A stretch of 64,000 nucleotides of DNA from a virus (IMGVR_UViG_2974511964_000001:73974-137973), one strand, 5' to 3'. Counted from the first letter of the stretch, positions 630-61,322 are shown. Program-made: numbers and translations. The notes: generated from the letters alone by a model not told the origin.

Positions 630-1517
630 ATGAAGTATCTAACAAGCCAGAACGCAACTGTTAAGTTTAAATGGCAATTGTCCGTTTATATCACTAGTTT
701 GTTAGAAATTGGGGTTAATCCCAATGACATTGTAGTGCTGTTCTCGGACAGTGATAGCCATATTCCTAAATATATTAGGGACCATTACCATGTAGATGTA
801 CATGTGTATGAGGATAATCGAGAAGACAAAAGCTATATTCCTAGTATAAAGCCTTACTTGGTTTATCGTTATTTAGATGAGAATCCTTCTGCTAGACTAG
901 AGGATTATGTCTATACAGATTCTGATATAATTATCAGGGAGCCACTTGATTTTAGTCTGCTACCAGCTGACTGTAAAAATTGGTATGGTTCAGATTGTGG
1001 TGGATACCTTGATATGGGATACCTAAGTTATGTTGATAATTCTGAAAAGATTATTAATGCTATGCTAGAAATAGTTGGAATTACAATTGATGATGTTAAG
1101 AGTATTGATGCTAATTGTATTGGTGCTCAATATATCCTATCAAACCCTAGTCCTGAATACTTTAAGAAAGTATATCAAGACTCTTACAAACTATACCACG
1201 CAACCACAAGGATTGAGTCTAATTTTCAAAATTGGGTAGCAGAGATGTATGCTACTTTATGGAATATGCCTCTATTTGGTATTAACCCCCATATTAGTGA
1301 TGAGTTGGCCTTCACGTGGGGAACTGATAGTGCAGAGACATTCAAAGAGAACAAGATTTATCATGATGCTGGAGTAGTTGATGGTAACCAAGGATTGTTC
1401 TACAAAGGTAATTATAATATGAGAGAGCCTTTTGATGATGATTTCAGTTTCATCAGCAAAGATAAAGCATCTTATTATTATACTCAGTATATTAAAGCAA
1501 CTAAGCAATACTCATAA
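630..1517 (+). CDS. Glycosyltransferase (GT-A fold, resembling peptidyl O-glycosyltransferases)
   Basis: DxD motif in YTDSDIII; GAQY and WVAEMYA motifs; KPYL upstream. Confidence 0.6.
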   Translation: MKYLTSQNATVKFKWQLSVYITSLLEIGVNPNDIVVLFSDSDSHIPKYIRDHYHVDVHVYEDNREDKSYIPSIKPYLVYRYLDENPSARLEDYVYTDSDIIIREPLDFSLLPADCKNWYGSDCGGYLDMGYLSYVDNSEKIINAMLEIVGITIDDVKSIDANCIGAQYILSNPSPEYFKKVYQDSYKLYHATTRIESNFQNWVAEMYATLWNMPLFGINPHISDELAFTWGTDSAETFKENKIYHDAGVVDGNQGLFYKGNYNMREPFDDDFSFISKDKASYYYTQYIKATKQYS

Positions 1518-1518
1518 T

Positions 1519-1545
1519 AGGCCACCTTCAATAGGTGGCCTTTTT
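1519..1545 (+). terminator. Rho-independent terminator
   Basis: AGGCCACC-ttcaata-GGTGGCCT hairpin followed by a T run. Confidence 0.8.
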
Positions 1546-1591
1546 ACTACAAATATGATACAATTAAAATAATTAAGAAAGAGGTAATAAT

Positions 1592-3298
1592 ATGGCATAT
1601 TATGATAAGGAAACAAGCGATGAATTGAAAGATAAATTTAAAGATTTAGCTAAGCCAAATGGAGCAGATTTTTCAGGGCTCATAGACTACTTTGACAAAG
1701 GATTACAGGGTATGGATGACAAAGGCGACAAAGGCGATACAGCGGTTATTGGTGAAAATTCAGTAAATACCATTAATTTAGTTGATAAAGCATCCACATA
1801 TGCAAAAAGAACCGTGCTTGGCAATATCACATCAGTTAATTGCACAAAAAAACCAGCTAATTACGATACGGCAGCAGGGACTTTAACCATTTATAAAGGT
1901 ACGATTGTTACTCACGGCAAGGGAAATTTCGAAACTTCAGCAGATGTTGTTTTAGATGTGATTGGTACTGGAAGCCGACAAAAAAAAATAATGTTTGACA
2001 CAATAACTAATACTTTTTTTGCTTTACCTTATAATGATTATACAAGCGTGAATGATGAAAATTGTTTGTTTTTAGGAACTGTTAATAGCTATCCAGATAA
2101 CCAAACAATAAACTTGGTTTTCGATTGCACAATTGACGGCATTTATCCTACAGTTTCAAAAGAGAAATCAATACCGACAAAGAGTTTAAATATAAATTCA
2201 AGAGTTTCACGTATTATTTTAAACTCAAACGGTCAATTCCCTAATATGGATACGTCTAATAGAACATTAACTTTTTACAATGATACTATTTTGGTTTTGT
2301 CAACTGGTGAATATTATATTTTGCCTGAGACAGTTGTGGACTTAACTATTGACCCGTCCAGTGCTTTAAAAATATATTATGACACTTTCAACAAGGTTTT
2401 TACGGTAAGAGCCTATGGAAAACTAGTAAACGAAGATAATTGGATATTCGTTTGTGCGGTTAGAACATCTATTGGAGCATTATCTATCCCTTGTGCATAC
2501 AACGTAAACGGAAAGCCTTTTGGACTTACGATTCCTGATAGTGTAGTTAAGAATCCTCTAAATGCTCATGTTAAAGCAGTTTTACACAGAGGATATAACA
2601 CGGTAGCACCAGAAAACACTATTCCTGCATACGAGTTAGCCAAAAAAATGGGTTTTAGTTATGTTGAAACAGATGTTAAATGGACGAGTGATGGCGTACC
2701 CATCTTACTACATGACGGCACGGTAGACCGCACGTCTGACGGAACAGGAGCAATCGCTGATTTAACTTTTAGTTATGCGCGTTCGTTGGATTTCGGAAGC
2801 TGGAAAGGTAGTGAGTATGTAGGAACATTAATTCCCACTTTTGAAGAATTTATTTTGAGTTGTAAAAAATTAAACTTGCATCCTTATATTCACATCAATG
2901 AACTTGTGACAGTTGAAAAAGCACAGGAATTAGTCGGTATAGTTAGAAAACAAGGAATGATAAGAAATGTATCGTGGATAAGTTTTACCACTGCCGCATT
3001 AACAAATATTTGTACAGCGTACCCAAAATCGAGAATAGGCATGTTGTCGGGTACTTTTGATGGGACTATCTTAGATGATGCGAGAGCGTTAAAAACAACT
3101 GAAAACGATGTTTTCCTAGATGTAGACACTCCAGCATTAACAAAAGAAATGATTGAAGCTGCTTTATCGGAAGACATCTACGTAGAAACATATACGGTGG
3201 ATTATAGTAATCTTGTGGAAGGTTATGTAAATATGGGGGTTAGTGGTATCACTACGAATAGCCTAAATATTGCCGAGATACTAGGCAACACATATTAA
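1592..3298 (+). CDS. Tail-associated glycerophosphodiester phosphodiesterase (GDPD)
   Basis: C-terminal HRG..APENT..ETDV..DGVPILLHD GDPD motifs; short GDKGDKGD collagen-like stub near the N-terminus. Confidence 0.85.
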   Translation: MAYYDKETSDELKDKFKDLAKPNGADFSGLIDYFDKGLQGMDDKGDKGDTAVIGENSVNTINLVDKASTYAKRTVLGNITSVNCTKKPANYDTAAGTLTIYKGTIVTHGKGNFETSADVVLDVIGTGSRQKKIMFDTITNTFFALPYNDYTSVNDENCLFLGTVNSYPDNQTINLVFDCTIDGIYPTVSKEKSIPTKSLNINSRVSRIILNSNGQFPNMDTSNRTLTFYNDTILVLSTGEYYILPETVVDLTIDPSSALKIYYDTFNKVFTVRAYGKLVNEDNWIFVCAVRTSIGALSIPCAYNVNGKPFGLTIPDSVVKNPLNAHVKAVLHRGYNTVAPENTIPAYELAKKMGFSYVETDVKWTSDGVPILLHDGTVDRTSDGTGAIADLTFSYARSLDFGSWKGSEYVGTLIPTFEEFILSCKKLNLHPYIHINELVTVEKAQELVGIVRKQGMIRNVSWISFTTAALTNICTAYPKSRIGMLSGTFDGTILDDARALKTTENDVFLDVDTPALTKEMIEAALSEDIYVETYTVDYSNLVEGYVNMGVSGITTNSLNIAEILGNTY

Positions 3299-3497
3299 AT
3301 AATGGTTAACCAAGGTGGTTTAGATTATCACGTTCATTGCAAAGAAACCACAGACATGCCGTATTCCATGGCGCCAGAAGACATGTTAAATTAGGAGGTA
3401 GACAATTGAATAAGCACAAATTAAAGGTACTGTTATATAGCCAATAACATTTACAGATGTTATTGAACAGTATGTATCTTCCTAAAGGAGAATAACA

Positions 3498-3995
3498 ATG
3501 GATATTTTAATTAATAAATGGTTCTTAATTGTAGAAATAACCTATATCTTAACAGTATTCTTTGAATACTTGTCTACAATTACTGCTATCAGAAATGCTG
3601 ATAGTTATGCTAGGCAAGTGGGTAATGAACTTACTAGTGATGTCATTAAGAAAGGTATCAAGTTTGGGTTTATAATGGAGGGACTAGTAGGAGCAATCCT
3701 ATCAGGTGGGTTAACTGCTTTTATTATTGCCGAGAAGGGTACCTTTACGTCTTTTGAATACGTGGTGTTTTACTTTGTTGGCTTATTTATATCATTATTT
3801 ATTCGTAACTATATCTATTCTTGGGTAACGAATGCTTATTCAGACAGACAAGTTAAGCGAATGAAGAATGCACAGGCTAAGATTATCAAGGAAGCCCAGA
3901 AAGACGTTGCTAATGGGTCTTTATCACCTGAACAGTTAGAACATCTTATGGACTTAACTTCTGGGAAGGCACGTGATAGCCAATGGCGGAAATAA
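3498..3995 (+). CDS. Membrane protein (about 3 TM segments)
   Basis: Hydrophobic segments; AAAGGAG RBS. Confidence 0.6.
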   Translation: MDILINKWFLIVEITYILTVFFEYLSTITAIRNADSYARQVGNELTSDVIKKGIKFGFIMEGLVGAILSGGLTAFIIAEKGTFTSFEYVVFYFVGLFISLFIRNYIYSWVTNAYSDRQVKRMKNAQAKIIKEAQKDVANGSLSPEQLEHLMDLTSGKARDSQWRK

Positions 3996-4561
3996 GTACA
4001 GTTAAAGCAGGAGTAGTAATGATAAATTCTAATCCTTACTATTATGTGGAGGAAATTAGTGTACAAGGTGCCAGTGTTCCCTATTTAGCAGTTTATGAAA
4101 TTAGTAAGGAGTCTTTGTCTCAATATGCCATAAGTAAAGACCTATCAGTGATATATAAGAAAGTTGTTCATCGTCAGGTTGACAAAACTAGAGTTATTGG
4201 CCTAACAAAATTATCAAAGTTAGTTACTAAGGGTAAAGATAAGATTACTGAAAAGCATACACAAACTCTGGTAGCAAAACCTCTTTTCCTAGCAGAGGAA
4301 GAACCCGGAATTGATTCATTTACTAATGAATATGGAATGGGATTTATGGAATACGTGAAGAACCCCGATGAAATTCTAAGAGCAAACATAAGTAATCAAA
4401 AAGATATGCCACCAGCAACAGTTCCTACTGGAGTATTTATCAGTGTAAAGCATATTGCATGGCAGAAGCAGTATATTCCAATTGCAGGACTAGTTGGCTA
4501 TCTGTCCGATTTAATTGATAATACTTTTGGGATGCCTTCAATTGATGTATTTGGGGGCTAG
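3983..4561 (+). CDS. Hypothetical phage protein
   Basis: 192-aa ORF in operon. Confidence 0.6.
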   Translation: MAEISTVKAGVVMINSNPYYYVEEISVQGASVPYLAVYEISKESLSQYAISKDLSVIYKKVVHRQVDKTRVIGLTKLSKLVTKGKDKITEKHTQTLVAKPLFLAEEEPGIDSFTNEYGMGFMEYVKNPDEILRANISNQKDMPPATVPTGVFISVKHIAWQKQYIPIAGLVGYLSDLIDNTFGMPSIDVFGG

Positions 4562-4564
4562 CTT

Positions 4565-5335
4565 ATGGCTCGTATTATGGAAGATGACGTCAAACAAGCT
4601 ATTCTTAGCAACCGTCATTTGTTATCTGGATTAGGTGATTTAGGAGATACCAAAGTTATATTTGAAAAGGGCATGAATTATGGTAACTTAATAGCTGATG
4701 CTATTGCTTTTACTCAAAAACAAGGAATCATTGGTTACGAGATTAAGACAGAGTATGACACGTTAAAAAGACTGCCAAAACAGTTGGATAGCTATGTTAG
4801 AGTATGCAACTATGTTATTGTTTTCTGTCATGATTCTAAGTTAGAGGAAGTAGAAAAGCTATTGGCTAGTAAGAACTATCCATTTGTCGGAATCATTAGT
4901 TATTCAGAATTTAATGATGATATCATTACTGGTATGTATCGGGCTCCTCAAATTAACCCTTTATTTAAGATGAAAGCCTGCCTGTCGATGCTTTGGAAAA
5001 ACGAAATATATGCCATTTTGTCGGCCTATGTTAATCATCCGAGCAACGTGGTTAAGAATACCTATAATGAGAAGGCTACTAATGTTCATACAGCTATGCT
5101 AAGTAGAAATTCTCAGTATGGCGTGTTAAGGCGTGATATGACTAAGAGAGCAATGATTTCACTGTACGATAACCTGATTCCAGAGAATGAAGGTATCCGA
5201 ATTATTTGTGAGATGTTTATCACTGAAAAGTTTGACCCTAATAAAAATTTACAGTTATACAATTATGGTGACCAGTTCACCCATGATGTAACCTTTAAAG
5301 ATGGCTACAATAAGCATAACAGGAGAAGACACTAA
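4565..5335 (+). CDS. PD-(D/E)xK nuclease-like protein (sce7726-like)
   Basis: IADAIAF..GYEIKTEYDTLKRLPKQLDSY motif. Confidence 0.65.
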   Translation: MARIMEDDVKQAILSNRHLLSGLGDLGDTKVIFEKGMNYGNLIADAIAFTQKQGIIGYEIKTEYDTLKRLPKQLDSYVRVCNYVIVFCHDSKLEEVEKLLASKNYPFVGIISYSEFNDDIITGMYRAPQINPLFKMKACLSMLWKNEIYAILSAYVNHPSNVVKNTYNEKATNVHTAMLSRNSQYGVLRRDMTKRAMISLYDNLIPENEGIRIICEMFITEKFDPNKNLQLYNYGDQFTHDVTFKDGYNKHNRRRH

Positions 5336-5428
5336 ATTGTCTTCTCTTTTTTATTTTAAATAAGTGTTGACATTGGTGTTATTGAACTGTATACTAAGCT
5401 TATTAAATAAAGGAAGAGGTAACATAAT

Positions 5429-7051
5429 ATGAAAAAATTTGATACCCAAAATAATAAGCGAGCATACATTGATTCATTGATTGAGCAACAAGACTACATT
5501 GACCCTAGGTACAATATTCATCTGTTTTCTAAGGAACGTGGTGTATACTCTGGGGTTGTTCGTTCGTTAGAGTCGCGTTCAGGCCAAGTAGACCGATTTA
5601 AGTATTACGGGTTTATTATTAACTTCCCAGAGACTTACTTTAGTTTAGAAGGTATCTCAGGTAAGAAATTAGCTAATAATGCTAAGAACTTAGGTGATGT
5701 ATTTAGTAACTCCGAAGCTTTATCAGAACAGGGGTTAAATATGCTAGTAGTTGTTGGTAATTGTCTGGCTAATATGGGTGATGAATACAGTGATAACTTA
5801 GGACGAGGCATCTATCGAGCAATTAAAAAATATCCAGCTTCTGAGCAAGTTTATATCAATTTTAAGGAACATACTAATTCTTACTTTATTCGTAGTGTAC
5901 AATCATTAGATAATGCTAAGCACCGTGAATATATTAGTGCCAATGGAAATGATGAGGGCTATACTTTTAATCTACGTAAGGCGTGGGGAGTTAGTAAAGG
6001 TAACTTCAAGTTGCTAAAGGACATGGGATACCGTGACGGTGTAGAGGTGTATGGTGACAGCAACAAGAACTTTAATCAACGGTTATCTTTACTACGATTA
6101 GCACGTACCTATGCTCATGAAGTAGATGATGAACGAGGTTATCATGACGCCGATAAGTGGTTCAAAAGTTTATACGAGGAGTTCATGGATAATCCTTATA
6201 GGACGGTAGACCAGCACGACGATGATTTCTTCTGGTATAGTGTGCCTAATATTTATCAAGCTTCGATGTTAGCTACTAATGATAAACAAGCGTGGATGCA
6301 TACGGTTAAATACTTTTATGGTAGCTTATACCACCAACAAGCAATTGATAGCGTTAGAGGGGCTGGGCGCTTGTATCTAGACTATGCTGACTTAGTTAAA
6401 GATTTCGATAGTTGGGTGCGTTACCCTCGTTACTTAAAAGTAGCTCATGATATTGCTATTCGTAATACACATGCTTTACACAACTTTGAAGATAATCATG
6501 GTATTATCAATAAGTACCACAAGTATAACCATCTTGAAGGCACTAATGGCGACTACAGCTTTATGCTAGCCTACGATGCGAAAGAAATTGTTGATGAAGG
6601 CCAACAACAAAGTAACTGTGTGGCAGGGTATGTTGATAGTGTTGCTACTGGTCAATCCTTGATTATGTTCTTACGTAAGGAGCAAGCTAAGTCATGGGTC
6701 ACTATTGAACTACGTCAGAATAATGATAATACGCTGACAATGTGTCAAGTGTTTGAACCATTTAATGCACCTTTGCATGATGAATCAAAACAGGCTTTAC
6801 ACGCATGGGCTAAGTTAAATAATATTAATATTGCTAAGAGCATTGGTGGTTGCAGTGATACTACTGGATGGGATAAGCAGTATAAGAAGCAATTCCGTGT
6901 AATGCAACCTCTAGCTGATAGCCCTCGTATGGATAAGGTTAAAAAAGAGATGGCTGAATACCAGAAGCAAGTAGAAGCTAATAAGGACGAAAAGGCTAAG
7001 TTAACCAGTAAGTTTGAAGAAGTCAATGCAAAAATTAAAAAAGCAGTTTAA
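5429..7051 (+). CDS. PcfJ-like domain protein
   Basis: C-terminal EGQQQSNCVAGY..IMFLRK..VTIEL motif; own TTGACA/TATACT promoter. Confidence 0.65.
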   Translation: MKKFDTQNNKRAYIDSLIEQQDYIDPRYNIHLFSKERGVYSGVVRSLESRSGQVDRFKYYGFIINFPETYFSLEGISGKKLANNAKNLGDVFSNSEALSEQGLNMLVVVGNCLANMGDEYSDNLGRGIYRAIKKYPASEQVYINFKEHTNSYFIRSVQSLDNAKHREYISANGNDEGYTFNLRKAWGVSKGNFKLLKDMGYRDGVEVYGDSNKNFNQRLSLLRLARTYAHEVDDERGYHDADKWFKSLYEEFMDNPYRTVDQHDDDFFWYSVPNIYQASMLATNDKQAWMHTVKYFYGSLYHQQAIDSVRGAGRLYLDYADLVKDFDSWVRYPRYLKVAHDIAIRNTHALHNFEDNHGIINKYHKYNHLEGTNGDYSFMLAYDAKEIVDEGQQQSNCVAGYVDSVATGQSLIMFLRKEQAKSWVTIELRQNNDNTLTMCQVFEPFNAPLHDESKQALHAWAKLNNINIAKSIGGCSDTTGWDKQYKKQFRVMQPLADSPRMDKVKKEMAEYQKQVEANKDEKAKLTSKFEEVNAKIKKAV

Positions 7052-15971: not shown

Positions 15972-17108
15972 ATGTATAAAGCATATAAAATTAGAATTTA
16001 CCCTAATAGACAACAAGAAACACAAATATTATTAACATTTGGTCATACTAGATTTGTTTGGAACCAAATGTTAGCCATGCAACTAGAACGCTATAAGAAT
16101 GGTGGTAAGTTTGTTAATGCTTTTGGTATGAACTACCTATTGACGCAGTTAAAAAAGGAGTACTCGTGGCTAACTGAATCTCCTAATCAAAGCTTACAGC
16201 AGGTATGCAAAGACTTATCAGATGCTTTTAAAAATCTGTTTGGACATAGAGCGAATAAACCAAAGTATAAGAGTAGAAAATACCCAAAGCAGAGTTATAG
16301 GTGTAACCAGAGGATATCGTTAGTAGACGGTCACCATATCAAGCTACCAAAACTTAAGACTGTGTACTACCGTTCTGGTAAAGAAATTAAAGGAAAAATT
16401 AAAAGTGTAACTATTCGTAAATCACCAACAGGTAAATATTATGCTAGCGTTCTGACTGAAATAGAGATTAAACCTTTAGCGAAAACCAAACAAGAGGTTG
16501 GAATTGATATGGGAGTTAAGGATTTAGCAATTACTAGTGATGGTACTAAATACAGAACTATCCGCTTTGATAAGTTATTAGCTGATAAGAAGCATTATTG
16601 GGAAGTACGGTTAGCAAGACGCCAAGCGTTAGCTAAGAAAGAAATAGCATGGGATAAACACAATAGAGTATTAGAACCCAGAGAGTTATCAGATTTTAGC
16701 AACTATATGAAAGCCAAACTAATGGTAGCTAAGTACAGTGAGAAGATAGCTAATCAAAGGAAAGACTATCTTCATAAGATTAGTACTGAGTTAGTAAACC
16801 AGTATGATGTTATCAAGGTTGAAGATTTGAAAGCTAGCAATATGATGAAAAATCACAAGCTATCACGAGCGATTGCTAATCAATCATGGAGAGAGCTACG
16901 TTTGATGTTAGAATACAAGTGTGAGTGGTATGGTAAAAAATTAGTGGTTGTTAGCCCATACAAAACCAGTCAAATTTGTTCATCATGTGGATATGATGAT
17001 GGCAAACATACCCTAGATGTTAGAGAATGGGTTTGTCCTAATTGTGGAGCTAAGCATGATAGAGATATCAATGCAGCTAAGAACATTCTAAAAGCAGAAG
17101 CAAAGTAG
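15972..17108 (+). CDS. tnpB: TnpB RNA-guided nuclease, IS200/IS605 family (no tnpA)
   Basis: KAYKIRIYP N-terminus; RuvC GIDMG / VEDL / DRD; CSSC..CPNC zinc finger. Confidence 0.92.
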   Translation: MYKAYKIRIYPNRQQETQILLTFGHTRFVWNQMLAMQLERYKNGGKFVNAFGMNYLLTQLKKEYSWLTESPNQSLQQVCKDLSDAFKNLFGHRANKPKYKSRKYPKQSYRCNQRISLVDGHHIKLPKLKTVYYRSGKEIKGKIKSVTIRKSPTGKYYASVLTEIEIKPLAKTKQEVGIDMGVKDLAITSDGTKYRTIRFDKLLADKKHYWEVRLARRQALAKKEIAWDKHNRVLEPRELSDFSNYMKAKLMVAKYSEKIANQRKDYLHKISTELVNQYDVIKVEDLKASNMMKNHKLSRAIANQSWRELRLMLEYKCEWYGKKLVVVSPYKTSQICSSCGYDDGKHTLDVREWVCPNCGAKHDRDINAAKNILKAEAK

Positions 17109-21566: not shown

Positions 21567-22703
21567 ATGTATAAAGCGTATAAAATTAGAATTTACCCTA
21601 ATAAACAACAAGAAGCACAAATATTATTAACTTTTGGACAGACTAGATTTGTTTGGAATAAAATGTTAGATATGCAATTAGAACGATACAGGAATGGTGG
21701 TAAGTTTGTTAACGCTTTTAGTATGGACTACCTATTGAAGCCACTGAAAAAAGAATATCCGTGGTTAACGGAGGCGCCTGCGCAAAGTCTACAACAGATA
21801 TGTAAAGACTTATCAGATGCTTTTAAAAATCTGTTTGAACATAGGGCAGGCAAACCCAAGTATAAGAGCAAAAAGTACCCAAAGCAGAGTTATAGATGCA
21901 ACCAAAGGATAATGTTAGTAGATGACCACCATATCAAGTTACCTAAACTAGGTTCTGTGTACTATCGCTCTGGTAGAGAAATTAAAGGTAAGATTAAAAG
22001 CGTAACTATCCGTAAATCTGCTACCAATAAATATTATGTTAGTGTCCTAACTGAAATAGAGATAAAACCTCTAGCGAAAATCAAGCAAGAGGTAGGTATT
22101 GATATGGGTGTTGCAGATTTAGTAATCACTAGTGATGGTAATAAATATAAAACAGTTAGATTTGACAAATTATTAGCTGATAAAAAACACTACTGGGAAG
22201 TACGATTGGCTCGTAGAAGGGCTTTAGCTAAGAAAGAAATAGCTTGGGATAAACACAATAATGTGCTGGAACCGAGAGAGTTATCAGATTTTAGTAACTA
22301 TATGAAAGCCAAGCTTATGGTAGCTAAGTATTCTGAGAAGATAGCTAACCAAAGAAAAGACTATCTTCATAAGATTAGTACCGAGCTAGTAAACCAGTAT
22401 GATGTTATCAAGATTGAAGATTTGAAAGCTGGTAATATGATGCGGAATCATAAGCTTGCTAGAACAATTGTTAATCAATCATGGAGAGAGCTACGTTTAA
22501 TGTTAGAATACAAATGTGAATGGTATGGTAAAGAGCTAGTAATTGTTAATCCATATAAGACCAGTCAAATCTGTTCTGACTGTGGCTATGATGACGGAAA
22601 GCATACTCTAGACGTTAGAGAATGGATTTGTCCTAATTGTGGTGCTAAGCATGATAGAGACATTAATGCTGCTAAGAACATTTTAAAGGAAGAAGCAAAG
22701 TAG
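21567..22703 (+). CDS. tnpB: TnpB RNA-guided nuclease, IS200/IS605 family, copy 2
   Basis: Close paralogue of 15972-17108; intact D/E/D RuvC triad; start at MYKAY after GGAGG. Confidence 0.92.
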   Translation: MYKAYKIRIYPNKQQEAQILLTFGQTRFVWNKMLDMQLERYRNGGKFVNAFSMDYLLKPLKKEYPWLTEAPAQSLQQICKDLSDAFKNLFEHRAGKPKYKSKKYPKQSYRCNQRIMLVDDHHIKLPKLGSVYYRSGREIKGKIKSVTIRKSATNKYYVSVLTEIEIKPLAKIKQEVGIDMGVADLVITSDGNKYKTVRFDKLLADKKHYWEVRLARRRALAKKEIAWDKHNNVLEPRELSDFSNYMKAKLMVAKYSEKIANQRKDYLHKISTELVNQYDVIKIEDLKAGNMMRNHKLARTIVNQSWRELRLMLEYKCEWYGKELVIVNPYKTSQICSDCGYDDGKHTLDVREWICPNCGAKHDRDINAAKNILKEEAK

Positions 22704-54963: not shown

Positions 54964-55950
54964 TGATTATTTTCTCCAATCTTTTAACTCTGTTCATTAA
55001 ATCATTATTCTCTTGCTGTAACTTGTCTATTAAATTTAGTTTGTCTACAACTTCTTTTGATAGGACTTTTTCTCCGATAATCCCATCTTCAAAAATGGTA
55101 CTTTTGTCTATTACAGTTTGTTCTGGAATATCAGCAGTTCTTGTCGCTGCAATAATCCGTTCTGGAATACCAGCAGTTCTTGATGATATTAGTTTATTGT
55201 CCATAATAACACCCCTTTTTATATCTATATGTATATAAATAGCACTTAATATGTGTATGCTATTTATATGACCAAGGTTTAGATGAGAACTGGCTAATAG
55301 TTAATTAGTTGTTGTGAATTTGATTATATGGATTATATCCAGAAAGTAAGTCTGAAATCATTTCCTTCATACCTTCTATATTACTGATAACATAGTCCAT
55401 ATTCATGTTATCCTTAGGTTTTAAGCTATTAACTCCTACTGATGAGAGCACAGTATATATACTAATTTTAACCATATCTGCATACTTCTTAATCGGCTCC
55501 AGTAGCTCTGATTCACCAGCATCTAGCTTGTATTCCTTTGAATAGCTAAACATATTGTAAATAATATCCGACAGCCGATTCTTCTCACTGTCAGTAAAAG
55601 TAATATCATATTGACTATCAGATGTTTTCGTGTTATATGCTACTAGTGTTCTTTGCACTAGCCACCCAAAATTATAGTACAGAGCCTTCAAGATGTTACA
55701 AGCACTATTTGCTTGGTCGTCGGACCTAGAGGCAACTTTGATTGCGTCTAGCTGAATATCTCTTTTTCTCGCCATCTTAAATTGAAGACCCTCTAGAACC
55801 ACTACTTCTTGCTTATTTAATTTACTCATACTTACATTACCTACCTTTTATTTTTATATGCGGTACAACTCCGCTATATGTACCCTCGGCATAAAAGAAC
55901 ATGGGAAGAAAACGCCGAGGAACGTTTTACTTTATTGTAATTAAGCTACA

Positions 55951-56021
55951 AGCGGATAGTCGGATTTGAACCGGCGACAGCTGCTTGGAGGGCAGTTATG
56001 TTACCACTACACCATATCCGC
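55951..56021 (-). tRNA. tRNA-Gly(TCC)
   Basis: Cloverleaf; anticodon loop CCTCCAA (C at 33); no encoded CCA. Confidence 0.8.
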
Positions 56022-56174
56022 ATTAAACGTAAGGAAAAGCGTCCAAACCCTTTAAGTTATGTCAAACATAAAATCCTAATAAGGTTTATGTCTCATAATC
56101 CGTTATGCCACTTACACTGGTTAGGTTGGGCGTTTACACTTAGTCTATGGTAACCAACCATAACACGCATATTA

Positions 56175-56245
56175 TGCCTCGTACTAGAATTGAACTAGTG
56201 ACTTCTGTTTACAAGACAGATGTTTTACCACTGAACTAACAAGGC
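56175..56245 (-). tRNA. tRNA-Thr(TGT)
   Basis: Anticodon arm TCTGT-CTTGTAA-ACAGA. Confidence 0.85.
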
Positions 56246-56286
56246 GTTACACTAGAAATAATCTAGTATACAGTATGTTGGCGCTA

Positions 56287-56402
56287 TGTGCTTGGTAGGG
56301 ATTTGCACCCTACATGGTATCTTGACTTCAGGGTTGCGACCCCTGTCTACGCCATTGAAATACCGCTACGCCCGCTATGTCTACCTATTCCATCACAAGC
56401 AC
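56287..56402 (-). ncRNA. tRNA-like RNA with an expanded, non-canonical anticodon/variable domain
   Basis: Acceptor GTGCTTG/CAAGCAC-A, Leu-type D arm and T arm intact; about 60 nt nested insert between them. Confidence 0.6.
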
Positions 56403-56662
56403 ACGTTAGAGTGCTAAATATCCTTTGACTGTCGCTGGCCCTGCCGTCTTTTCATCGCTCTCAAACTACTATTGATAGCTTCCTACACTATCTCACTAAC
56501 TATAATTCGGCTTCGCAGATATATAACTGGTAGTTTATTGACTTGCCTAGGTCAATTACTAATCTTTGGTACACTTATTTATCGACCTGAATTACTCCTC
56601 CATCCATTTCAATTTCGCCTTCTTGATGTTCATTGTAAAACAAGCTTTCTAATGAAGGATAA

Positions 56663-56801
56663 GTTCCATAGATATGTCATATGGTTAATGCATACCTTTC
56701 GGGGGAACTACAGAATTTGTTATAAAAACTTCTTATAATAGTGACTCCAGTATATTTACCCCGCTTTTTTAATGACTTCCGCAATGGATTTACGTAATGT
56801 C
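56663..56801 (-). ncRNA. Third copy of the omega-like scaffold plus a single repeat (guide at about 56633-56662), abutting the tRNA-Leu 3' end
   Basis: 56763-56801 is near-identical to 59069-59107 and 60613-60651; repeat GTTCCATAGATATGTCAT at 56663. Confidence 0.75.
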
Positions 56802-56803
56802 TA

Positions 56804-56877
56804 TGCTCTCGGTGAGATTCGAACTCACACTGTGTGGCTTCTAAGACCACTATCTCTGCCAATTGGATTACGAGAGC
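56804..56877 (-). tRNA. tRNA-Leu(TAG) with short variable loop
   Basis: GTGGT-CTTAGAA-GCCAC; 5-nt variable region. Confidence 0.8.
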
Positions 56878-56884
56878 AATATAA

Positions 56885-57450
56885 GTGTCCGCATTGGTTT
56901 GCGTAGTATACTTTAACTTTTACGATATATTCTGCCATACACTAGTCAGCGCCTACTAGCAAGGAGCTACCAAGCTAGCTGTTGACCCATTATAATGTGT
57001 AATCCAGCACAATGACTGATAACTTTCAGGCGTCATTAGGCATATAATATTTATATAGTTATTTTTATATTTGTATTCCTAGATTTACCCTACTAATACT
57101 CAACTAGTTACTTATAGGAGGAGTTACCTCTATCAACTAGAAAATAGCTTACTGATTTCCCTACTTGGTTCTGCCAGTTATCACACTAACATTAGCTTAG
57201 GGTCTGCGTATTGCGCTACCGTAACCGTTGATGCATTTATCGACAAACTTGTATCTAGCACTGAATCCGTGATGGCTTTCTTTCACCACAACCTTTGTCA
57301 CTACAACAATAGGTTTATTAAATCTACTAGCTATCACTATATAGACGTAATACACATTATGACAGCGCTGCTAGGCGAGATTGACAGTCTCTTATACACT
57401 AGCTTGACACTATGTATAGTTATGGTTGTAATTCTTTCAAATTATCAACC
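56885..57450 (-). ncRNA. Candidate large structured ncRNA (ROOL/GOLLD-like)
   Basis: About 570 nt between tRNAs without a credible ORF; nested long-range helices 56971-56978/57399-57406 and 56992-57001/57351-57360; local hairpins. Confidence 0.5.
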
Positions 57451-57467
57451 TAAAATATATGATGATA

Positions 57468-57539
57468 CTGCCCGAGCTGGGTTCGAACCAGCGACCTCTT
57501 GATTAACAGTCAATTATTCTACCGCTGAACTACCGGGCA
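57468..57539 (-). tRNA. tRNA-Asn(GTT)
   Basis: Anticodon loop CTGTTAA; GGTTCGAAC T arm. Confidence 0.85.
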
Positions 57540-57574
57540 ATGTAAGTTGGTAAATATTATTACTAATATTTCTA

Positions 57575-57657
57575 CACAGGATACCGGAGTTGAACCGGTT
57601 CGATTAGGTCAGTTTTACTGTGCGCACCCTAACGTTCTACCGTTAAACTAATCCCGT
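57575..57657 (-). ncRNA. tRNA-like RNA with a 19-nt anticodon loop
   Basis: Intact acceptor, D and T arms; TTAGG-(GTGCGCA CAGTAAAACTG A)-CCTAA. Confidence 0.6.
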
Positions 57658-57675
57658 AATATAAACATTTGTTAA

Positions 57676-57747
57676 TACTCGTAGGTGGGTTCGAACCACC
57701 GACCCCTCAATTATAAGTTGAATGCTCTGCCTCTGAGCTATACGAGT
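57676..57747 (-). tRNA. tRNA-Ile(TAT)
   Basis: TTCAA-CTTATAA-TTGAG. Confidence 0.85.
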
Positions 57748-57772
57748 GTATTTATATGAATAATGCTGTTAA

Positions 57773-57860
57773 CACTCTTAGTAGGATTTGAACCTACATC
57801 GTTAAGTAGATTTGCTACTTACCGGGTATTCCGGCCACACTACCATTGTGCTATAAGAGT
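57773..57860 (-). ncRNA. tRNA-like RNA (Ser-like long variable arm, 5-nt anticodon loop)
   Basis: ACTCTTA/TAAGAGT acceptor; GCCGG-AATAC-CCGGT; AAGTAG-CAAAT-CTACTT arm; GTAGG-TTCAAAT-CCTAC. Confidence 0.6.
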
Positions 57861-57902
57861 AAATTATGAAGGATGCCACCCGCAAGCTGGTGTATCCTTC
57901 AA

Positions 57903-57975
57903 TGCCTCCCGTTGGACTTGAACCAGCGACCTTCCCCGCTTCAAGGGGACGCTCTACCTACTGAGCTAGAGGGGC
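57903..57975 (-). tRNA. tRNA-Phe(GAA)
   Basis: TCCCC-TTGAAGC-GGGGA. Confidence 0.85.
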
Positions 57976-58176
57976 ATATTAAGTGGCTAGGAAGACTTGT
58001 AGAAGGAACCACTAATAATAGTTGTTACACAAGAGGAGCTCGTGTCAGGTGGTCGGCCTTATCTTATGCACCCCGCTAATAAGCGGGCGTCAACAACTAT
58101 TCCTTTAGTCTCATTTTCAATACCCCGACCAGGAGGTAGAGACATCAATATTTTGCCTTTTTGAAAGGGGTGGCAA

Positions 58177-58249
58177 TGTGTCCTGACAGAATCGGACTGT
58201 CATCTACGGTTTAGGAGACCATTATTCTATCCAATTGAACTAAAGACAC
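58177..58249 (-). tRNA. tRNA-Arg(CCT)
   Basis: ATGGT-CTCCTAA-ACCGT. Confidence 0.8.
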
Positions 58250-58344
58250 ATATAGGAGGTATACCCCCTATAGAGTAATAACAACAACATATCACTTAGT
58301 TAATTAAAAAATAAAATTACCAACTATAGCTTATTAGTTAGTAA

Positions 58345-58416
58345 TGCGTCCTGACAGAATCGAACTGTCATCGTAGAGGTAGAGGCTCCATGTCTTATCC
58401 ATTAGACCAAAGACGC
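58345..58416 (-). tRNA. tRNA-Arg(TCT)
   Basis: TGGAG-CCTCTAC-CTCTA; atypical loop; acceptor and T arms nearly identical to tRNA-Arg(CCT). Confidence 0.7.
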
Positions 58417-58457
58417 TTGATATAGGCTAACTTGGTTTTCGCTAACCTATACTTATT

Positions 58458-58485
58458 ATTATACCACACTTTTTAGTATTTGCAA
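58458..58485 (-). promoter_or_regulatory. Promoter of the tRNA cluster
   Basis: TTGCAA-N16-TATAAT with TG extension. Confidence 0.6.
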
Positions 58486-58515
58486 CACTTTTTTAGAATT
58501 TATTTTTATTAATTT

Positions 58516-59003
58516 TATCTAAAAGTATGCCATTTCAATCATGTATACACCTTTAGCAGTTAGACTGTTTTTGAGGCTTTAGACCCATAGATATGTCATT
58601 TAAAGCATACACATACATTTCTCAATTATCCTTCGCATGAGAGACAAACTCCAGAGGTATGTCATTTATATCATGTACATGCCTACCGTTGAAACAGATT
58701 ATCAAGACTCCTTGCTCCAAAGATATGTCATTTAGAACATTTAAATACCGTACCGGACAAGCGCCATCGTGGGAGGATAGCTCCATAGGTATGCCATTTA
58801 GAGCATGTACATACCTATTCTAAGCAATCTGCTTGAGTATTATCAGTCCCGTAGGTATGTCATTTAGAGCAGGTACCTTCACGGTATACTCTTCTAAACA
58901 TTTCTATGCTCCAGAGGCATGTAATTTAGAACACGTACATACCTATTGCGTCCTGCCATAATAGCAGCGGTGTGCTCCACAGACATGTCATTTAATGCAT
59001 ACC
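58516..59003 (-). CRISPR. Degenerate CRISPR array 1: 8 repeats, 7 spacers of exactly 30 bp
   Basis: Repeats (+ strand consensus GCTCCATAGGTATGTCATTTAGAGCATGTACATACC) start at 58516, 58582, 58648, 58714, 58780, 58846 (32 bp), 58908 and 58974 (fused to scaffold); all spacers unique. Confidence 0.9.
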
Positions 59004-59117
59004 CTTCGAGGGAACTACAAGACTTGTATTTAAGGCTCTAAATATAGAGGTCTCAGTATATTTACCTTGCTTTTTTAATGACTTCCGCAATGGATTTACG
59101 TAATGTCATTTGCTTAT
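59004..59117 (-). ncRNA. omega-RNA/tracr-like scaffold leading into array 1
   Basis: Conserved in three copies; GGTAAA..hairpin..TGTAGTTCCC core; TCCAT..GTCATT is complementary to the repeat. Confidence 0.75.
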
Positions 59118-59123
59118 GTATAA

Positions 59124-59152
59124 AGAATACCATGATTGGTATTCTTTGTCAA
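59124..59152 (-). promoter_or_regulatory. Palindromic promoter driving scaffold + array 1
   Basis: TTGACA-N17-TATTCT with TG extension; AAAGAATACCA..TGGTATTCTTT inverted repeat. Confidence 0.75.
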
Positions 59153-59175
59153 CACTTATTTATAATTTATTTTAA

Positions 59176-60303
59176 TTATTTTTTGAAAGCTTCATCTCTA
59201 ATGTTTTTAGCCGCATTGATATCACGGTCATGAATAACACCACAGTTAGGGCACGCCCATTCACGGTCTCCCAAAGTAAGTTTATCCGCTCCTTCTAACC
59301 GATATCCACAGTCATTGCACGTCTGAGATGAAGGATAGAATCTATCAATCTTCTTGACTTCTTTATCATACCAATCAGCCTTGTACTGTAGTTGACGAGT
59401 AAACTCATATAGTGATACATCCCCAACAGCTTTAGCTAGCTTATGGTTAGCCATCATTCCCTTAACATTCAGGTCTTCAATGGCAATTTTATCATAATTA
59501 ACAATAAGATACTTGCTAATATTATGCAGATATGCCTTGCGTTGGTTTTGTAAACGTTCATATACTTTAGCACGCTTAATCTTAGCTTTAACCCTACCCA
59601 TACTACCATTTTGTTTACGGGCTAAAGCTCTATCAGCTTTAATAAGCTTCTTTTCACTCTTTTTGATAGCGTGCATATTAGAAAACTTTTTACCATCACT
59701 AGTAATGACAAAGTCTTTAATTCCCAAGTCTAATCCAATGGCTTTATCAGTGTGATAATCAACATTCTTAAAATGGTCATCAGGTACTTCAAAGCCGATT
59801 GATACATAGTATTCACCAGACTTTGTCATTGAGACAGTTGCTGAGATAATTCGGCAATCATCTGGTAATGGCCTATGCAGCACAATCTTAATTGGTGAAA
59901 TCTTAGGAAGTTTAATATGGTCATCCTCTAGTCTAATACTTTTTTCACCTTTGTGAACTCTAGTCTTATAAGACCATGCACATTTATGATAGTTTTTAAA
60001 CTTGGGGAATCCTACCTTTTGATGTTTCTTAATTCCTCTAAAGAAGTTTTGATATGCTTGGCTTAAATTTGTTCTTGCATAGTCCAAACAATTGTTATCG
60101 CAATCTTTTAAAAAGTAGTTTTCTGGCTTGTTTTTAACCCAAGTAACTAGCTTTAATTTAGACTTTCCTGTTTCTTCATATTGCTGTTTGGCATCAGCTA
60201 ATAAAGCGTTATAAACAAATCTAGCTCCATTGATGTTTTTCCAAATTAGTTCTTGTTGCTCCTTATTCGGATAAATTCTATATTTATGTGCATAATTAAT
60301 CAT
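59176..60303 (-). CDS. tnpB: CRISPR-associated TnpB-like (Cas12f-sized) RNA-guided nuclease, 375 aa
   Basis: HKYRIYP; RuvC GLDLG / IEDL / DRD intact; CNDC..CPNC; start ATG 60303 (the track's start at 60366 lies inside a repeat). Confidence 0.9.
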   Translation of the reverse strand: MINYAHKYRIYPNKEQQELIWKNINGARFVYNALLADAKQQYEETGKSKLKLVTWVKNKPENYFLKDCDNNCLDYARTNLSQAYQNFFRGIKKHQKVGFPKFKNYHKCAWSYKTRVHKGEKSIRLEDDHIKLPKISPIKIVLHRPLPDDCRIISATVSMTKSGEYYVSIGFEVPDDHFKNVDYHTDKAIGLDLGIKDFVITSDGKKFSNMHAIKKSEKKLIKADRALARKQNGSMGRVKAKIKRAKVYERLQNQRKAYLHNISKYLIVNYDKIAIEDLNVKGMMANHKLAKAVGDVSLYEFTRQLQYKADWYDKEVKKIDRFYPSSQTCNDCGYRLEGADKLTLGDREWACPNCGVIHDRDINAAKNIRDEAFKK

Positions 60304-60359
60304 GTAATTTCCACTCTTTTCTTTTATTATTAGCCTTATTCTATAGTTATTCCAACATT

Positions 60360-60547
60360 GCTCCATAGATATATCATTTAGAGCATGTACATGCCTTTTG
60401 AGGCTTTAGTTCCATAGTTATGTCATTTCAATCATGTACATACCAATCTAACCTGGAATCATTATTTTGATGTTGTTCCATAGATATGTCATTTATAAGT
60501 GTATACCCTCCAAGCTCCAGAAGTATGTCATACGGCTAATGCACGCC
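60360..60547 (-). CRISPR. Degenerate CRISPR array 2: 4 repeats with spacers of 13, 30 and 6 bp
   Basis: Repeats at 60360, 60409, 60475 and 60514; same consensus as array 1. Confidence 0.85.
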
Positions 60548-60661
60548 TTTCAAGGGAACTACAGAATTTGTTATAAAGTTTCTTATAATAGTGATTCCAG
60601 TATATTTACCTCGCTTTTTTAATGACTTCCGCAATGGATTTACGTATTGTCATTTGCTTAT
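60548..60661 (-). ncRNA. omega-RNA/tracr-like scaffold leading into array 2
   Basis: Homologous to 59004-59117 and 56697-56801. Confidence 0.75.
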
Positions 60662-60667
60662 GTATTA

Positions 60668-60696
60668 AGAATACCATGATTGGTATTCTTTGTCAA
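60668..60696 (-). promoter_or_regulatory. Palindromic promoter driving scaffold + array 2
   Basis: Identical to 59124-59152. Confidence 0.75.
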
Positions 60697-60716
60697 CACT
60701 TATTTATACTTTATTT

Positions 60717-61322
60717 TTACTTGTGATTTAAGTCACCCTCAAATAAATCTTTTGAATATAGAAGTTTGGTAGCTAGTGTAGCTACTTTAGTATTAGCTAA
60801 ACTAACTTCGGCATCAACTGATTTAAGTTGGCCTTCTAATCCAGACTTCTTAATAGCAAGCAAATCAATCTGTTTCCGATAACTATTAATCTCTGAATTA
60901 ACTTGAGAAATATCGTTCTTGATACGCTTAGTTTCTACCCCAGACTTAGATTTAACCTCTTGCTGGTCATCAACCGCTCGTTGTAACGCCGTAATTAGTG
61001 ACCTCTTTATCGTCTCGTTCAAGTCTTCATATTCGATTCCAAAATCAACTTTAAATAATGTTATGATGGTCCCTTTCTCAAATACAAACACTAAATCGTT
61101 TAACATATAATAATCAGACGTTGAATGGCCCTTCCCTAACTGGCCCCTAAATACAAAATCAGCATTATCAAAGCTAGTCAAGATATCCTTAGTTACCTTA
61201 TCAGAGTTGCTTACTAAATACCTTTTGATTTCTCTATCGTCAGTAATACCATTCATTCGTTCTACCCAGCGTGACTTTGCATGTTGGGATACAGTTACTT
61301 CTACAGCTTCTTCATTTGCCAT
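60717..61322 (-). CDS. Hypothetical protein with C-terminal coiled coil
   Basis: SQHAKSRWVER N-terminal motif; own promoter. Confidence 0.6.
   Translation of the reverse strand: MANEEAVEVTVSQHAKSRWVERMNGITDDREIKRYLVSNSDKVTKDILTSFDNADFVFRGQLGKGHSTSDYYMLNDLVFVFEKGTIITLFKVDFGIEYEDLNETIKRSLITALQRAVDDQQEVKSKSGVETKRIKNDISQVNSEINSYRKQIDLLAIKKSGLEGQLKSVDAEVSLANTKVATLATKLLYSKDLFEGDLNHK

What the first reader, a model, noticed from the sequence alone, without database searches (positions are those of the whole stretch)
56633..60696. Phage-encoded TnpB-CRISPR hybrid: compact RuvC nuclease between two scaffold-led CRISPR arrays
Seen: a 375-aa TnpB-like gene (59176-60303, D/E/D triad and Zn finger intact), clearly divergent from the two IS605 tnpBs in this window. 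It has no tnpA and no IS right end. Both flanks instead carry the same unit on the - strand: promoter -> ~110-nt scaffold -> 36-bp repeats with unique spacers (8 repeats with seven exact 30-bp spacers downstream; 4 repeats upstream). No cas1/2/9 is in the window. Known: TnpB is the ancestor of Cas12, uses a 3' guide, and has been recruited to CRISPR arrays several times. Inference: this is a domesticated, multi-guide TnpB-to-Cas12 intermediate used by a lytic phage, probably against competing phages/MGEs or host genes. The repeats differ from each other at several positions, so standard array finders could miss them.
Basis: partly seen in the sequence, partly recalled or inferred. Interest (0 to 1): 0.97.

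Follow-up and report, generated by a model that had tools for sequence, protein, structure and literature searches.

The report
Phage TnpB with plasmid-targeting guide arrays
A virulent Lactiplantibacillus plantarum phage carries a tiny transposon-type RNA-guided DNA cutter (TnpB) flanked by CRISPR-like guide arrays whose guides match plasmids and resident phages of its host, so it looks like a minimal phage-owned weapon caught between a jumping gene and a CRISPR system.

Summary
A 375-aa TnpB gene (59176-60303, minus strand) has an intact RuvC triad and zinc finger. On each side lies a promoter, a ~115-nt scaffold and 36-nt repeats with 30-nt spacers. A third scaffold follows tRNA-Leu.

New evidence:
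- Six of eight full-length spacers in the window match Lactobacillaceae plasmids or phage-like circular replicons. A control stretch of the same phage gave no such matches.
- All 12 target sites found for this nuclease and its close (>=94%) relatives carry CC at -3/-2 on the 5' side (chance about 1e-17). That fits a TnpB/Cas12-type target-adjacent motif.
- The scaffold is a structured RNA. 13 of 32 pairs show compensatory change, including a pseudoknot between a scaffold loop and the repeat's 3' tail.
- Relatives down to about 70% identity keep the architecture; homologues at <=47% have no arrays.
- Single scaffold-guide units have matching "empty sites" in sister phages, a homing footprint.

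No TnpA, Cas1 or Cas2 is encoded.

The closest known kind is TranC (transposon-CRISPR intermediates, 2025). No paper in the library describes this system. This scan has already reported the same kind in another Lactobacillus phage genome (e1-4038959). Transcription, cleavage, benefit to the phage and spacer uptake are all untested.

The parts
60668..60696 (-). Promoter-like site driving upstream scaffold, array 1 and probably tnpB
   Evidence: The consensus scan scores it 10/12 with an extended TG. It is conserved in Bacchae, Lpa804, L024 and L025. Transcription was not measured.
60514..60651 (-). Upstream scaffold (omega-RNA-like), core 60537-60651 plus own repeat-like tail
   Evidence: Repeat family D3/D4. 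It belongs to the alignments with compensatory pairs.
60360..60510 (-). Array 1: three repeats (60475-60510, 60409-60444, 60360-60395), a 30-nt spacer (60445-60474) and a 13-nt spacer (60396-60408)
   Evidence: Parsed. The 30-nt spacer matches Lactiplantibacillus plasmids 29/30 with a CTCCT flank. The 13-nt spacer equals the start of spacer 7 of array 2.
59176..60303 (-). tnpB, 375 aa, RNA-guided nuclease candidate
   Evidence: Family and structure matches. The protein is 99% identical in Bacchae and Lpa804, 94% in L024 and 86% in L025.
59124..59152 (-). Promoter-like site driving downstream scaffold and array 2
   Evidence: It has the same hexamers as the upstream site.
58974..59107 (-). Downstream scaffold fused to a repeat-like tail (single-guide form)
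   Evidence: The P1 loop at about 59091-59094 pairs with the tail at about 58976-58979 (pseudoknot).
58516..58973 (-). Array 2: seven 30-nt spacers (sp1 58944-58973, sp2 58878-58907, sp3 58816-58845, sp4 58750-58779, sp5 58684-58713, sp6 58618-58647, sp7 58552-58581) and seven repeats; the last repeat is degenerate
   Evidence: Plasmid or phage-like targets were found for sp1, sp2, sp3, sp5 and sp7. None was found for sp4 and sp6.
56803..56878 (-). tRNA-Leu(TAG), directly upstream of the solo scaffold; likely gives its 5' end by tRNA processing
   Evidence: ARAGORN and Rfam call the tRNA. The processing step is inferred.
56633..56801 (-). Solo scaffold (56663-56801) with a single guide (56633-56662)
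   Evidence: The guide has a GTCCA-flanked 'empty site' in Lpa804, and homology between the phages breaks exactly at the scaffold-guide junction.
55872..55906 (-). Empty target site for a solo scaffold that Bacchae carries here (guide match 55872-55901, TCCCA flank 55902-55906)
   Evidence: Bacchae has a roughly 251-nt insertion ending in scaffold plus tail at this point. Its guide matches the window 29/30.

Best explanation
This is a phage-owned RNA-guided nuclease system of the TranC type, that is, a TnpB that has left its transposon and uses CRISPR-like arrays.

Proposed mechanism:
1. Sigma-70-type promoters, and for the solo unit the tRNA operon, transcribe the minus strand.
2. The ~115-nt scaffold folds into three helices. 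The loop of its first hairpin pairs with the 3' tail of a repeat (pseudoknot), which places the 30-nt spacer as a 3' guide.
3. The 375-aa TnpB, with an intact RuvC site, binds this RNA, recognises a 5' N-C-C-W motif next to a matching sequence, and cuts DNA.
4. The array guides point at small rolling-circle plasmids, larger mobilizable or conjugative plasmids and temperate-phage-like replicons of Lactobacillaceae. In a sister phage one points at a plasmid restriction gene beside TIR/SIR2 genes. The phage therefore probably destroys rival or defence-carrying replicons during infection.
5. Solo scaffold-guide units point at the unoccupied allele in sister phages and probably spread by cut-and-repair homing in co-infections.
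6. The arrays are protected from self-cutting because each spacer is preceded by the repeat end, which lacks the CC motif.

Shown from sequence: the anatomy, RNA covariation, target matches, the target-adjacent motif, conservation and intact catalytic residues. Inferred: transcription, processing, cleavage and the benefit to the phage. Unknown: how spacers are added.
For: Protein: end-to-end match to ISDra2 TnpB with the catalytic D/E/D and zinc finger conserved; 99% identical across three phages although the flanking DNA is only about 90% identical.

Targets:
- Array 2 hits 103 plasmid records, 67 of them Lactiplantibacillus and nearly all Lactobacillaceae, with E down to 3e-3.
- sp5 is 28/28 identical in 35 plasmids.
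- The array 1 spacer is 29/30 in Lactiplantibacillus plasmids.
- Spacers of sister arrays hit phage-like 'plasmids' 30/30 in TerL and in head genes, and hit a plasmid hsdR.
- A 495-bp control from the same phage gave no Lactiplantibacillus hit and a best E of 0.5.

Target-adjacent motif: 12 of 12 independent sites have CC at -3/-2, against a background CC frequency of 0.038 (P about 8e-18).

RNA: 9 of 28 pairs are compensatory in 15 scaffolds. With the pseudoknot, 99% of cells are paired, 13 of 32 pairs are compensatory, and slid controls give 33-45%. Loop and tail co-vary as UCCA:UGGA, UCCG:CGGA and CCGG:CCGG.

Linkage: the architecture is kept in L024 (94%), L025 (86%) and L113/L114 (~70%) and is absent at <=47% identity.

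Homing footprints.

Spacer conservation: shared spacers differ less than their repeats (17/540 against 79/648 mismatches; this comparison is biased by how shared spacers were picked).
Against: - No expression or cleavage data exist.
- The scaffold's single-sequence folding energy is ordinary (z = -0.42).
- sp4 and sp6 have no target in the collections searched.
- All three scaffolds in this window carry their own tail and guide, so it is unclear which RNA serves the downstream repeat-spacer units. The candidate anti-repeat in the linker of split scaffolds is no better than shuffled sequence.
- One spacer of a more distant relative (L025) has 30/30 targets with a TTTAA flank.
- A Bacchae spacer resembles the phages' own DNA, with 2 mismatches and no CC flank.
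- Cutting plasmids that carry toxin-antitoxin genes could harm the infected cell, so the benefit to the phage is not obvious.
- No adaptation genes are present.
Confidence: 0.8

Rival explanations
1. The main role is selfish homing. TnpB and the scaffold units form a gene drive that spreads among co-infecting phages, as homing endonucleases do. The plasmid-matching spacers are by-products of how spacers arise and give the phage little or no benefit.
For: Three solo units (this window, Bacchae, Gut-P1) have guides equal to their own 3' flank, with CC-flanked empty sites in sister phages. The locus is a hot spot for mobile nucleases: Semele carries a GIY-YIG-like ORF there. This is the known function of TnpB in transposons (reviewed in PMC13565253).
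Against: Array spacers are shared and well conserved among phages from Denmark and China. They sit on conserved plasmid backbone regions and phage packaging and head genes, with the correct motif. Two promoters are devoted to the arrays. The two roles do not exclude each other.
Confidence: 0.1
2. The complex binds DNA without cutting, or cutting is not the point. It would silence genes or block replication of plasmids and prophages, like TldR or Cas12c/Cas12m.
For: TnpB relatives have repeatedly become RNA-guided repressors, some of them phage-encoded (bioRxiv 2023.11.30.569447). Several targets lie in intergenic plasmid regions.
Against: The RuvC D/E/D residues and the zinc finger are all conserved, and the protein aligns over its whole length with active ISDra2 TnpB. 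Other targets lie inside coding genes, far from promoters (TerL, head genes, hsdR).
Confidence: 0.06
3. These are decaying leftovers of IS605-type insertions. The 'arrays' are tandem duplications of a transposon right end with no present function.
For: The repeats are degenerate. Array 1 has truncated spacers of 3-6 and 13 nt. Semele has lost the cassette, leaving a scar. There is no TnpA.
Against: The protein is 99% conserved. The RNA shows compensatory changes. The period is strict. Spacers have taxon-specific targets with a uniform flanking motif. The architecture is kept at about 70% protein identity.
Confidence: 0.03
4. On origin only: the array was captured from a host type II-A CRISPR locus, which has the same 36+30 geometry. 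New spacers are still inserted by the host's Cas1-Cas2 in trans, and TnpB merely reads them.
For: The strict 36+30 geometry with no adaptation genes in the phage. Other reports of this scan describe phage TnpBs with borrowed host arrays.
Against: The repeat is the same sequence as the 3' end of the scaffold in the fused units. Its tail co-varies with the scaffold loop, also in the ~70% relatives whose repeats differ. No repeat homologue was found outside these phages in the phage or plasmid collections. Host chromosomes could not be searched.
Confidence: 0.15

Closest known systems
TranC, transposon-CRISPR intermediates (Jin et al., Cell 2025, pmid 41027434; known here through PMC13565253 and bioRxiv 10.64898/2026.03.27.714800; LaTranC structures 9JFO/9JFQ)
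   Same: A TnpB-derived effector outside a transposon, next to a short CRISPR-like array with 32-38-nt repeats and no adaptation or accessory cas genes. The guide RNA is derived from the transposon right-end RNA and split into scaffold and repeat parts. The motif lies 5' of the target.
   Different: LaTranC matches only the C-terminal third of this protein (E 6e-31), whereas ISDra2 TnpB matches end to end. Fused (single-guide) and split scaffolds coexist within one lineage. Scaffolds occur in 3-4 copies per genome, each with its own promoter or linked to a tRNA. Solo units keep a homing footprint. Whether this lineage is one of the published clades could not be checked, because the paper and its tables are not held.
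CauTranC9 (bioRxiv 10.64898/2026.03.27.714800)
   Same: TnpB-sized with no expanded REC/WED domains and no ISDra2-type C-terminal tail. It is encoded in a Caudoviricetes genome, has a small array, and has a compact motif.
   Different: It is reported with 38-bp repeats, 5 repeats and spacers against phages. Here the repeats are 36 bp and most targets are plasmids.
ISDra2 TnpB with its omega RNA (PDB 8BF8, 8EXA, 8H1J)
   Same: Same domain order and catalytic residues over the full length (E 1.5e-69). The guide lies 3' of a structured scaffold. The scaffold has a pseudoknot next to the guide (established knowledge of TnpB/Cas12f RNAs, restated in the paper read).
   Different: There is no TnpA and there are no transposon ends around the gene. 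The scaffold does not overlap the 3' end of the gene but has its own promoter. There are many guides per locus, and the motif is short (CC-based) rather than the TTGAT type.
Cas12r of Thermus Lalka phages (bioRxiv 10.64898/2026.04.20.719267)
   Same: A phage-encoded type V system whose spacers mostly target other mobile elements of the host, which the authors read as conflict between mobile elements.
   Different: It is a different, larger effector with a canonical array in temperate-type Thermus phages, and its targets are integrative elements at tRNA genes.
TldR, nuclease-dead TnpB relatives, some phage-encoded (bioRxiv 2023.11.30.569447; PMC13418256)
   Same: A TnpB taken out of its transposon, with a neighbouring guide RNA gene, on phages.
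   Different: TldR has lost its catalytic residues and uses one guide to repress a host gene. Here the catalytic site is intact and there are many guides.

Membership tests
TnpB (RNA-guided endonuclease of IS200/IS605 elements) | HTH/WED-REC, split RuvC and zinc-finger domain order, with family-level sequence match | tested here: met
   Three Pfam domains match. NCBIfam guided_TnpB scores 331 bits against a cut-off of 100. The match to ISDra2 TnpB is end to end.
TnpB (RNA-guided endonuclease of IS200/IS605 elements) | Catalytic D/E/D of RuvC and CxxC..CxxC | tested here: met
   The residues are aligned with D191, E278 and D361 of 8BF8, and both cysteine pairs are present.
TnpB (RNA-guided endonuclease of IS200/IS605 elements) | Lies in a transposon with TnpA, or at least with left and right ends, and the omega RNA overlaps the 3' end of the gene | tested here: not met
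   No Y1 transposase in the genome. The scaffold starts about 70 nt after the stop, behind its own promoter. In Semele the locus holds other genes plus a scar, not a clean empty site.
TnpB (RNA-guided endonuclease of IS200/IS605 elements) | Structured scaffold RNA with a 3' guide and a 5' target-adjacent motif | tested here: met
   Covariation. All targets have the motif on the 5' side of the guide-sense strand. RNA binding was not tested.
TranC (transposon-CRISPR intermediate) | TnpB-like effector linked to a CRISPR-like array, conserved across relatives | tested here: met
   Arrays lie next to the gene in this phage, Bacchae, Lpa804, L024, L025 and L113/L114.
TranC (transposon-CRISPR intermediate) | Right-end RNA functionally split into a scaffold (tracr-like) and a repeat-spacer RNA | tested here: inconclusive
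   Split scaffolds without a tail exist in sister loci, and their loop co-varies with the repeat tails of their own array. The anti-repeat candidate is not above chance, and no RNA data exist.
TranC (transposon-CRISPR intermediate) | Works with both array-derived and transposon-type single guides | not testable with these tools
   Both forms are encoded (fused units and arrays). Use of them needs experiments.
TranC (transposon-CRISPR intermediate) | Belongs to one of the published clades | not tested
   The clade sequences are not held. Only LaTranC could be compared, and it is distant.
Canonical type V CRISPR-Cas (Cas12) | Adaptation module (Cas1/Cas2), or at least an array with uniform repeats and a leader | tested here: not met
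   No Cas1 or Cas2. The repeats differ at several positions. Cas12f2 and C2c8 models score far below their cut-offs.

The most novel reading that the evidence does not exclude
Guide-RNA units move and act independently of the nuclease gene. A different phage, the siphovirus Gut-P1, has no tnpB at all. It carries one tRNA-flanked scaffold whose guide is a perfect, motif-flanked match to a site in the TnpB-bearing rival phage Lpa804. In a mixed infection the rival's own nuclease would then be reprogrammed to cut the rival's genome. That would be an RNA-only 'Trojan' weapon, or at least a guide-only gene drive that parasitises a nuclease supplied in trans. Together with the plasmid-directed arrays, this would make the locus a three-way conflict system built on one 375-aa enzyme.
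Probability: 0.2. Interest if true: 0.92.

Novelty: new variant of a known kind. Interest (0 to 1): 0.78.

Why it matters
This may be one of the clearest natural snapshots of how a transposon nuclease becomes a CRISPR effector. Within one phage lineage there are single-guide omega-type units that still home like transposon ends, split scaffolds, and regular multi-spacer arrays, all served by an unexpanded 375-aa TnpB.

It also shows a virulent phage aiming most of its guides at host plasmids and resident phages rather than at the host chromosome or at lytic rivals. That bears on how phages deal with plasmid-borne defence and with competitors in food fermentations.

The short CC-based motif and the tiny protein make it a candidate compact genome-editing tool.

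The strict 36+30 geometry without adaptation genes makes the question 'who adds the spacers?' directly testable in a culturable, safe phage-host pair.

Tried and rejected
- Rfam: no family matches the scaffold. Only tRNAs and ROOL are found in 55800-61000.
- Single-sequence folding of the scaffold is not better than shuffles. The evidence for structure comes from covariation only.
- Anti-repeat in the linker of split scaffolds: an 8-bp duplex with the repeat's 5' end is predicted but is no better than shuffled linkers.
- A repeat-internal hairpin (positions 1-7 with 22-28) is not kept in several repeats, so it is not claimed.
- The scaffold motif is found in IMG/VR only in Bacchae and Lpa804. 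In 185,579 species genomes there was one chance-level hit in a Binataceae MAG.
- Spacers against isolated phages: no hit outside the arrays themselves. sp4 and sp6 have no exact hit in IMG/VR.
- Host chromosomes could not be searched.
L113/L114 from IMG/VR served instead.
- Periodic repeats near distant homologues (L142, L152) are coding tandem repeats, not arrays.
- The Bacchae array-1 spacer as an anti-rival guide is rejected as evidence. The same 2-mismatch site without a CC flank is in Bacchae itself.

Full report
WHAT THE WINDOW IS. The 64-kb window is the right part of a 138-kb virus record estimated 98% complete. Over the region of interest it is 90-95% identical to the virulent Lactiplantibacillus plantarum myophages Bacchae and Lpa804 (Herelleviridae, Harbinvirus). 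All genes around the finding lie on the minus strand. In transcription order they are: a transglycosylase-like ORF, a 201-aa ORF, the cassette, a tRNA operon that also holds a ROOL RNA, and further small ORFs.

THE OBSERVATION. It is correct in every main point.
- The gene at 59176-60303(-) encodes 375 aa with the three TnpB Pfam domains. It passes NCBIfam's TnpB subfamily cut-off.
- It aligns from residue 3 to 373 with ISDra2 TnpB, with the RuvC D/E/D and both CxxC pairs in place.
- It is only 39-40% identical to the two other tnpB genes of the genome.
- Direct-repeat analysis and my own parsing give three copies of a ~115-nt scaffold. Two sit behind identical promoter-like sites (10 of 12 consensus positions, extended TG). 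One sits 2 nt after tRNA-Leu.
- Each scaffold ends in a repeat-like tail followed by unique sequence.
- The downstream copy continues with seven more repeats and seven 30-nt spacers at a 66-nt period. The upstream copy continues with three more repeats and partly truncated spacers.
- The genome has no Y1 transposase, Cas1 or Cas2.

THE SCAFFOLD IS A STRUCTURED RNA THAT PAIRS WITH THE REPEAT TAIL.
- Fifteen scaffold copies from six sources align with 89% mean identity. They fall into two sequence classes whose differences are compensatory: 9 of 28 predicted pairs change on both sides and stay paired.
- I added the diverged scaffolds of IMG/VR contig L114 and a pseudoknot between the loop of the first hairpin and the last nucleotides of the repeat. 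With these, 99% of cells are paired, 13 of 32 pairs are compensatory (0 of 500 shuffles reach this), and slid controls give 33-45% paired. Three of the four pseudoknot pairs change on both sides.
- Loop and tail occur as UCCA with UGGA, UCCG with CGGA, and CCGG with CCGG.
- The second class is found in 'split' scaffolds of Lpa804 and L024. These lack a tail of their own, so that pairing can only be with the repeats of their array. This is the contact expected for TnpB/Cas12f-type guide RNAs, where the scaffold forms a pseudoknot with the 3' end of the repeat (stated in the paper read).
- The core of the scaffold resembles the sequence just after the stops of the phage's two other tnpB genes, which supports its origin from an omega RNA (lead from e1-5838717).
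- Single-sequence folding energy is unremarkable.

THE SPACERS HAVE TARGETS, WITH ONE FLANKING MOTIF. Array 2, used as a BLAST query against 72,556 plasmids, gave 103 records. Of these, 67 are Lactiplantibacillus and almost all the rest are other Lactobacillaceae. Each match is confined to one spacer.
- sp1 hits TerL of a 34.5-kb circular phage-like 'plasmid'.
- sp2 hits 2-kb plasmids.
- sp3 hits an intergenic backbone region of 17-72-kb plasmids.
- sp5 hits 35 mobilizable or conjugative plasmids at 28/28.
- sp7 hits a hairpin region of many 2-4-kb rolling-circle-type plasmids, with mismatches only at guide positions 15-18.
- The 30-nt spacer of array 1 hits Lactiplantibacillus plasmids 29/30.
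- Spacers specific to sister loci hit TerL 30/30 and head genes of phage-like replicons. One hits a plasmid type I restriction gene lying beside TIR and SIR2 genes, at 24/25, which is weak on its own.
- A control stretch of the same phage, of the same length and searched with the same settings, gave scattered weak hits (best E 0.5) and none in Lactiplantibacillus.
- Isolated phages in INPHARED hold no target.
- In all 12 independent sites belonging to this nuclease and its close (>=94%) relatives, the two bases at -3/-2 on the 5' side of the guide-sense strand are CC. T is commonest at -4 and T or A at -1. The background CC frequency is 0.038, which gives about 8e-18 by chance.
- In the arrays themselves each spacer is preceded by the repeat end, which lacks CC. 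This explains self-tolerance.

TRANSPOSON-LIKE BEHAVIOUR OF SOLO UNITS.
- Bacchae has a roughly 251-nt insertion ending in scaffold plus tail, at a point where this window and Lpa804 have an uninterrupted TCCCA-flanked site. The 'guide' is simply the flank.
- The solo unit of this window has a GTCCA-flanked empty site in Lpa804, and homology between the phages breaks exactly at the scaffold-guide junction.
- The unrelated siphovirus Gut-P1 has no tnpB. It carries one scaffold between two tRNAs, and its guide matches 30/30 a CTCCT-flanked site found only in Lpa804.
- These are the footprints expected if TnpB cuts the empty allele and repair copies the unit in.
- Placement right after tRNAs, also seen in L114, suggests that tRNA processing defines the RNA ends.

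CONSERVATION AND LOSS.
- The protein is 99% identical in three phages isolated in different countries.
- Many spacers are shared in the same order, with gain or loss mainly at the scaffold-proximal end. The most degenerate repeat is at the far end.
- Shared spacers differ less than their repeats (with ascertainment bias).
- Metagenome contigs with 94% and 86% identical proteins, and IMG/VR contigs at about 70%, keep the order promoter, scaffold, repeats, tnpB, scaffold, repeats.
- Homologues at <=47% have no arrays.
- Semele has lost the cassette and keeps a scar.
- The 2019 genome paper describes the gene only as a mobile element protein upstream of the tRNA module and does not mention arrays.

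COMPARISON WITH WHAT IS KNOWN.
- The kind is TranC: TnpB-derived effectors with arrays and a split right-end RNA. It was published in 2025 and extended in 2026 to a TnpB-sized phage example.
- Phage type V systems that target other mobile elements are also on record.
- The system here works like these. Membership in a published clade could not be tested.
- It differs in five ways. Fused and split guide forms coexist. There are several scaffold genes with their own promoter or tRNA linkage. Solo units keep homing footprints. A guide unit sits in a phage that lacks the nuclease. The target set is dominated by plasmids.
- I found no paper on it.
- This scan has reported the same kind of locus in another Lactobacillus phage genome (e1-4038959). 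I did not use that report beyond noting agreement.

VERDICT. This is a real, conserved and very probably functional phage TnpB guide-array system directed against plasmids and resident phages. It is a new variant of a recently described kind. Activity, RNA processing, benefit to the phage and spacer uptake remain to be shown.

Noticed in passing
window 56872-57427 (-): ROOL RNA (RF03087) at 144 bits against a gathering score of 99. It lies inside the tRNA operon, directly upstream of tRNA-Leu and the solo scaffold.
   Followed up: partly
window 57575-57657 (-): The Rfam tRNA model matches here (46 bits), but ARAGORN calls no tRNA. This may be an odd or degenerate tRNA in the operon.
   Followed up: no
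L003 (Gut-P1, ON117106) 3002-3136 (-), guide 2972-3001: A siphovirus without any tnpB carries one scaffold-guide unit between two tRNAs. Its guide matches 30/30 a CC-flanked site in Lpa804 and no site in this phage, Bacchae or Semele.
   Followed up: partly
L157 (Semele, NC_047926) about 6290-6390 (-): Semele lacks tnpB and the arrays but keeps the promoter, a mutated first hairpin of the scaffold and a remnant of the terminal repeat (a deletion scar). Next to this lie two extra ORFs, one with a GIY-YIG-like motif.
   Followed up: partly
window 15981-17093 (+) and 21576-22697 (+): Two further tnpB genes (39-40% identical to the array-linked one) have an omega-like core right after their stops. 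They have no tnpA anywhere in the genome and no arrays.
   Followed up: partly
L025 1511-1540 (+): A spacer of the 86%-identical relative matches 12 Lactobacillaceae plasmids 30/30 but with a TTTAA flank instead of CC. The target-adjacent motif may have shifted in that lineage.
   Followed up: no
L110 (pLB1-2A, NZ_CP025992) 1121-6025: The plasmid region hit by a truncated Lpa804 spacer holds type I restriction genes followed by TIR-domain and SIR2-family genes, which is a likely defence island.
   Followed up: no
L114 about 3800-3880 (+): In the ~70% relative, a tRNA-like element behind its own promoter directly precedes the downstream scaffold. This repeats the tRNA-scaffold linkage seen in the window.
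   Followed up: no
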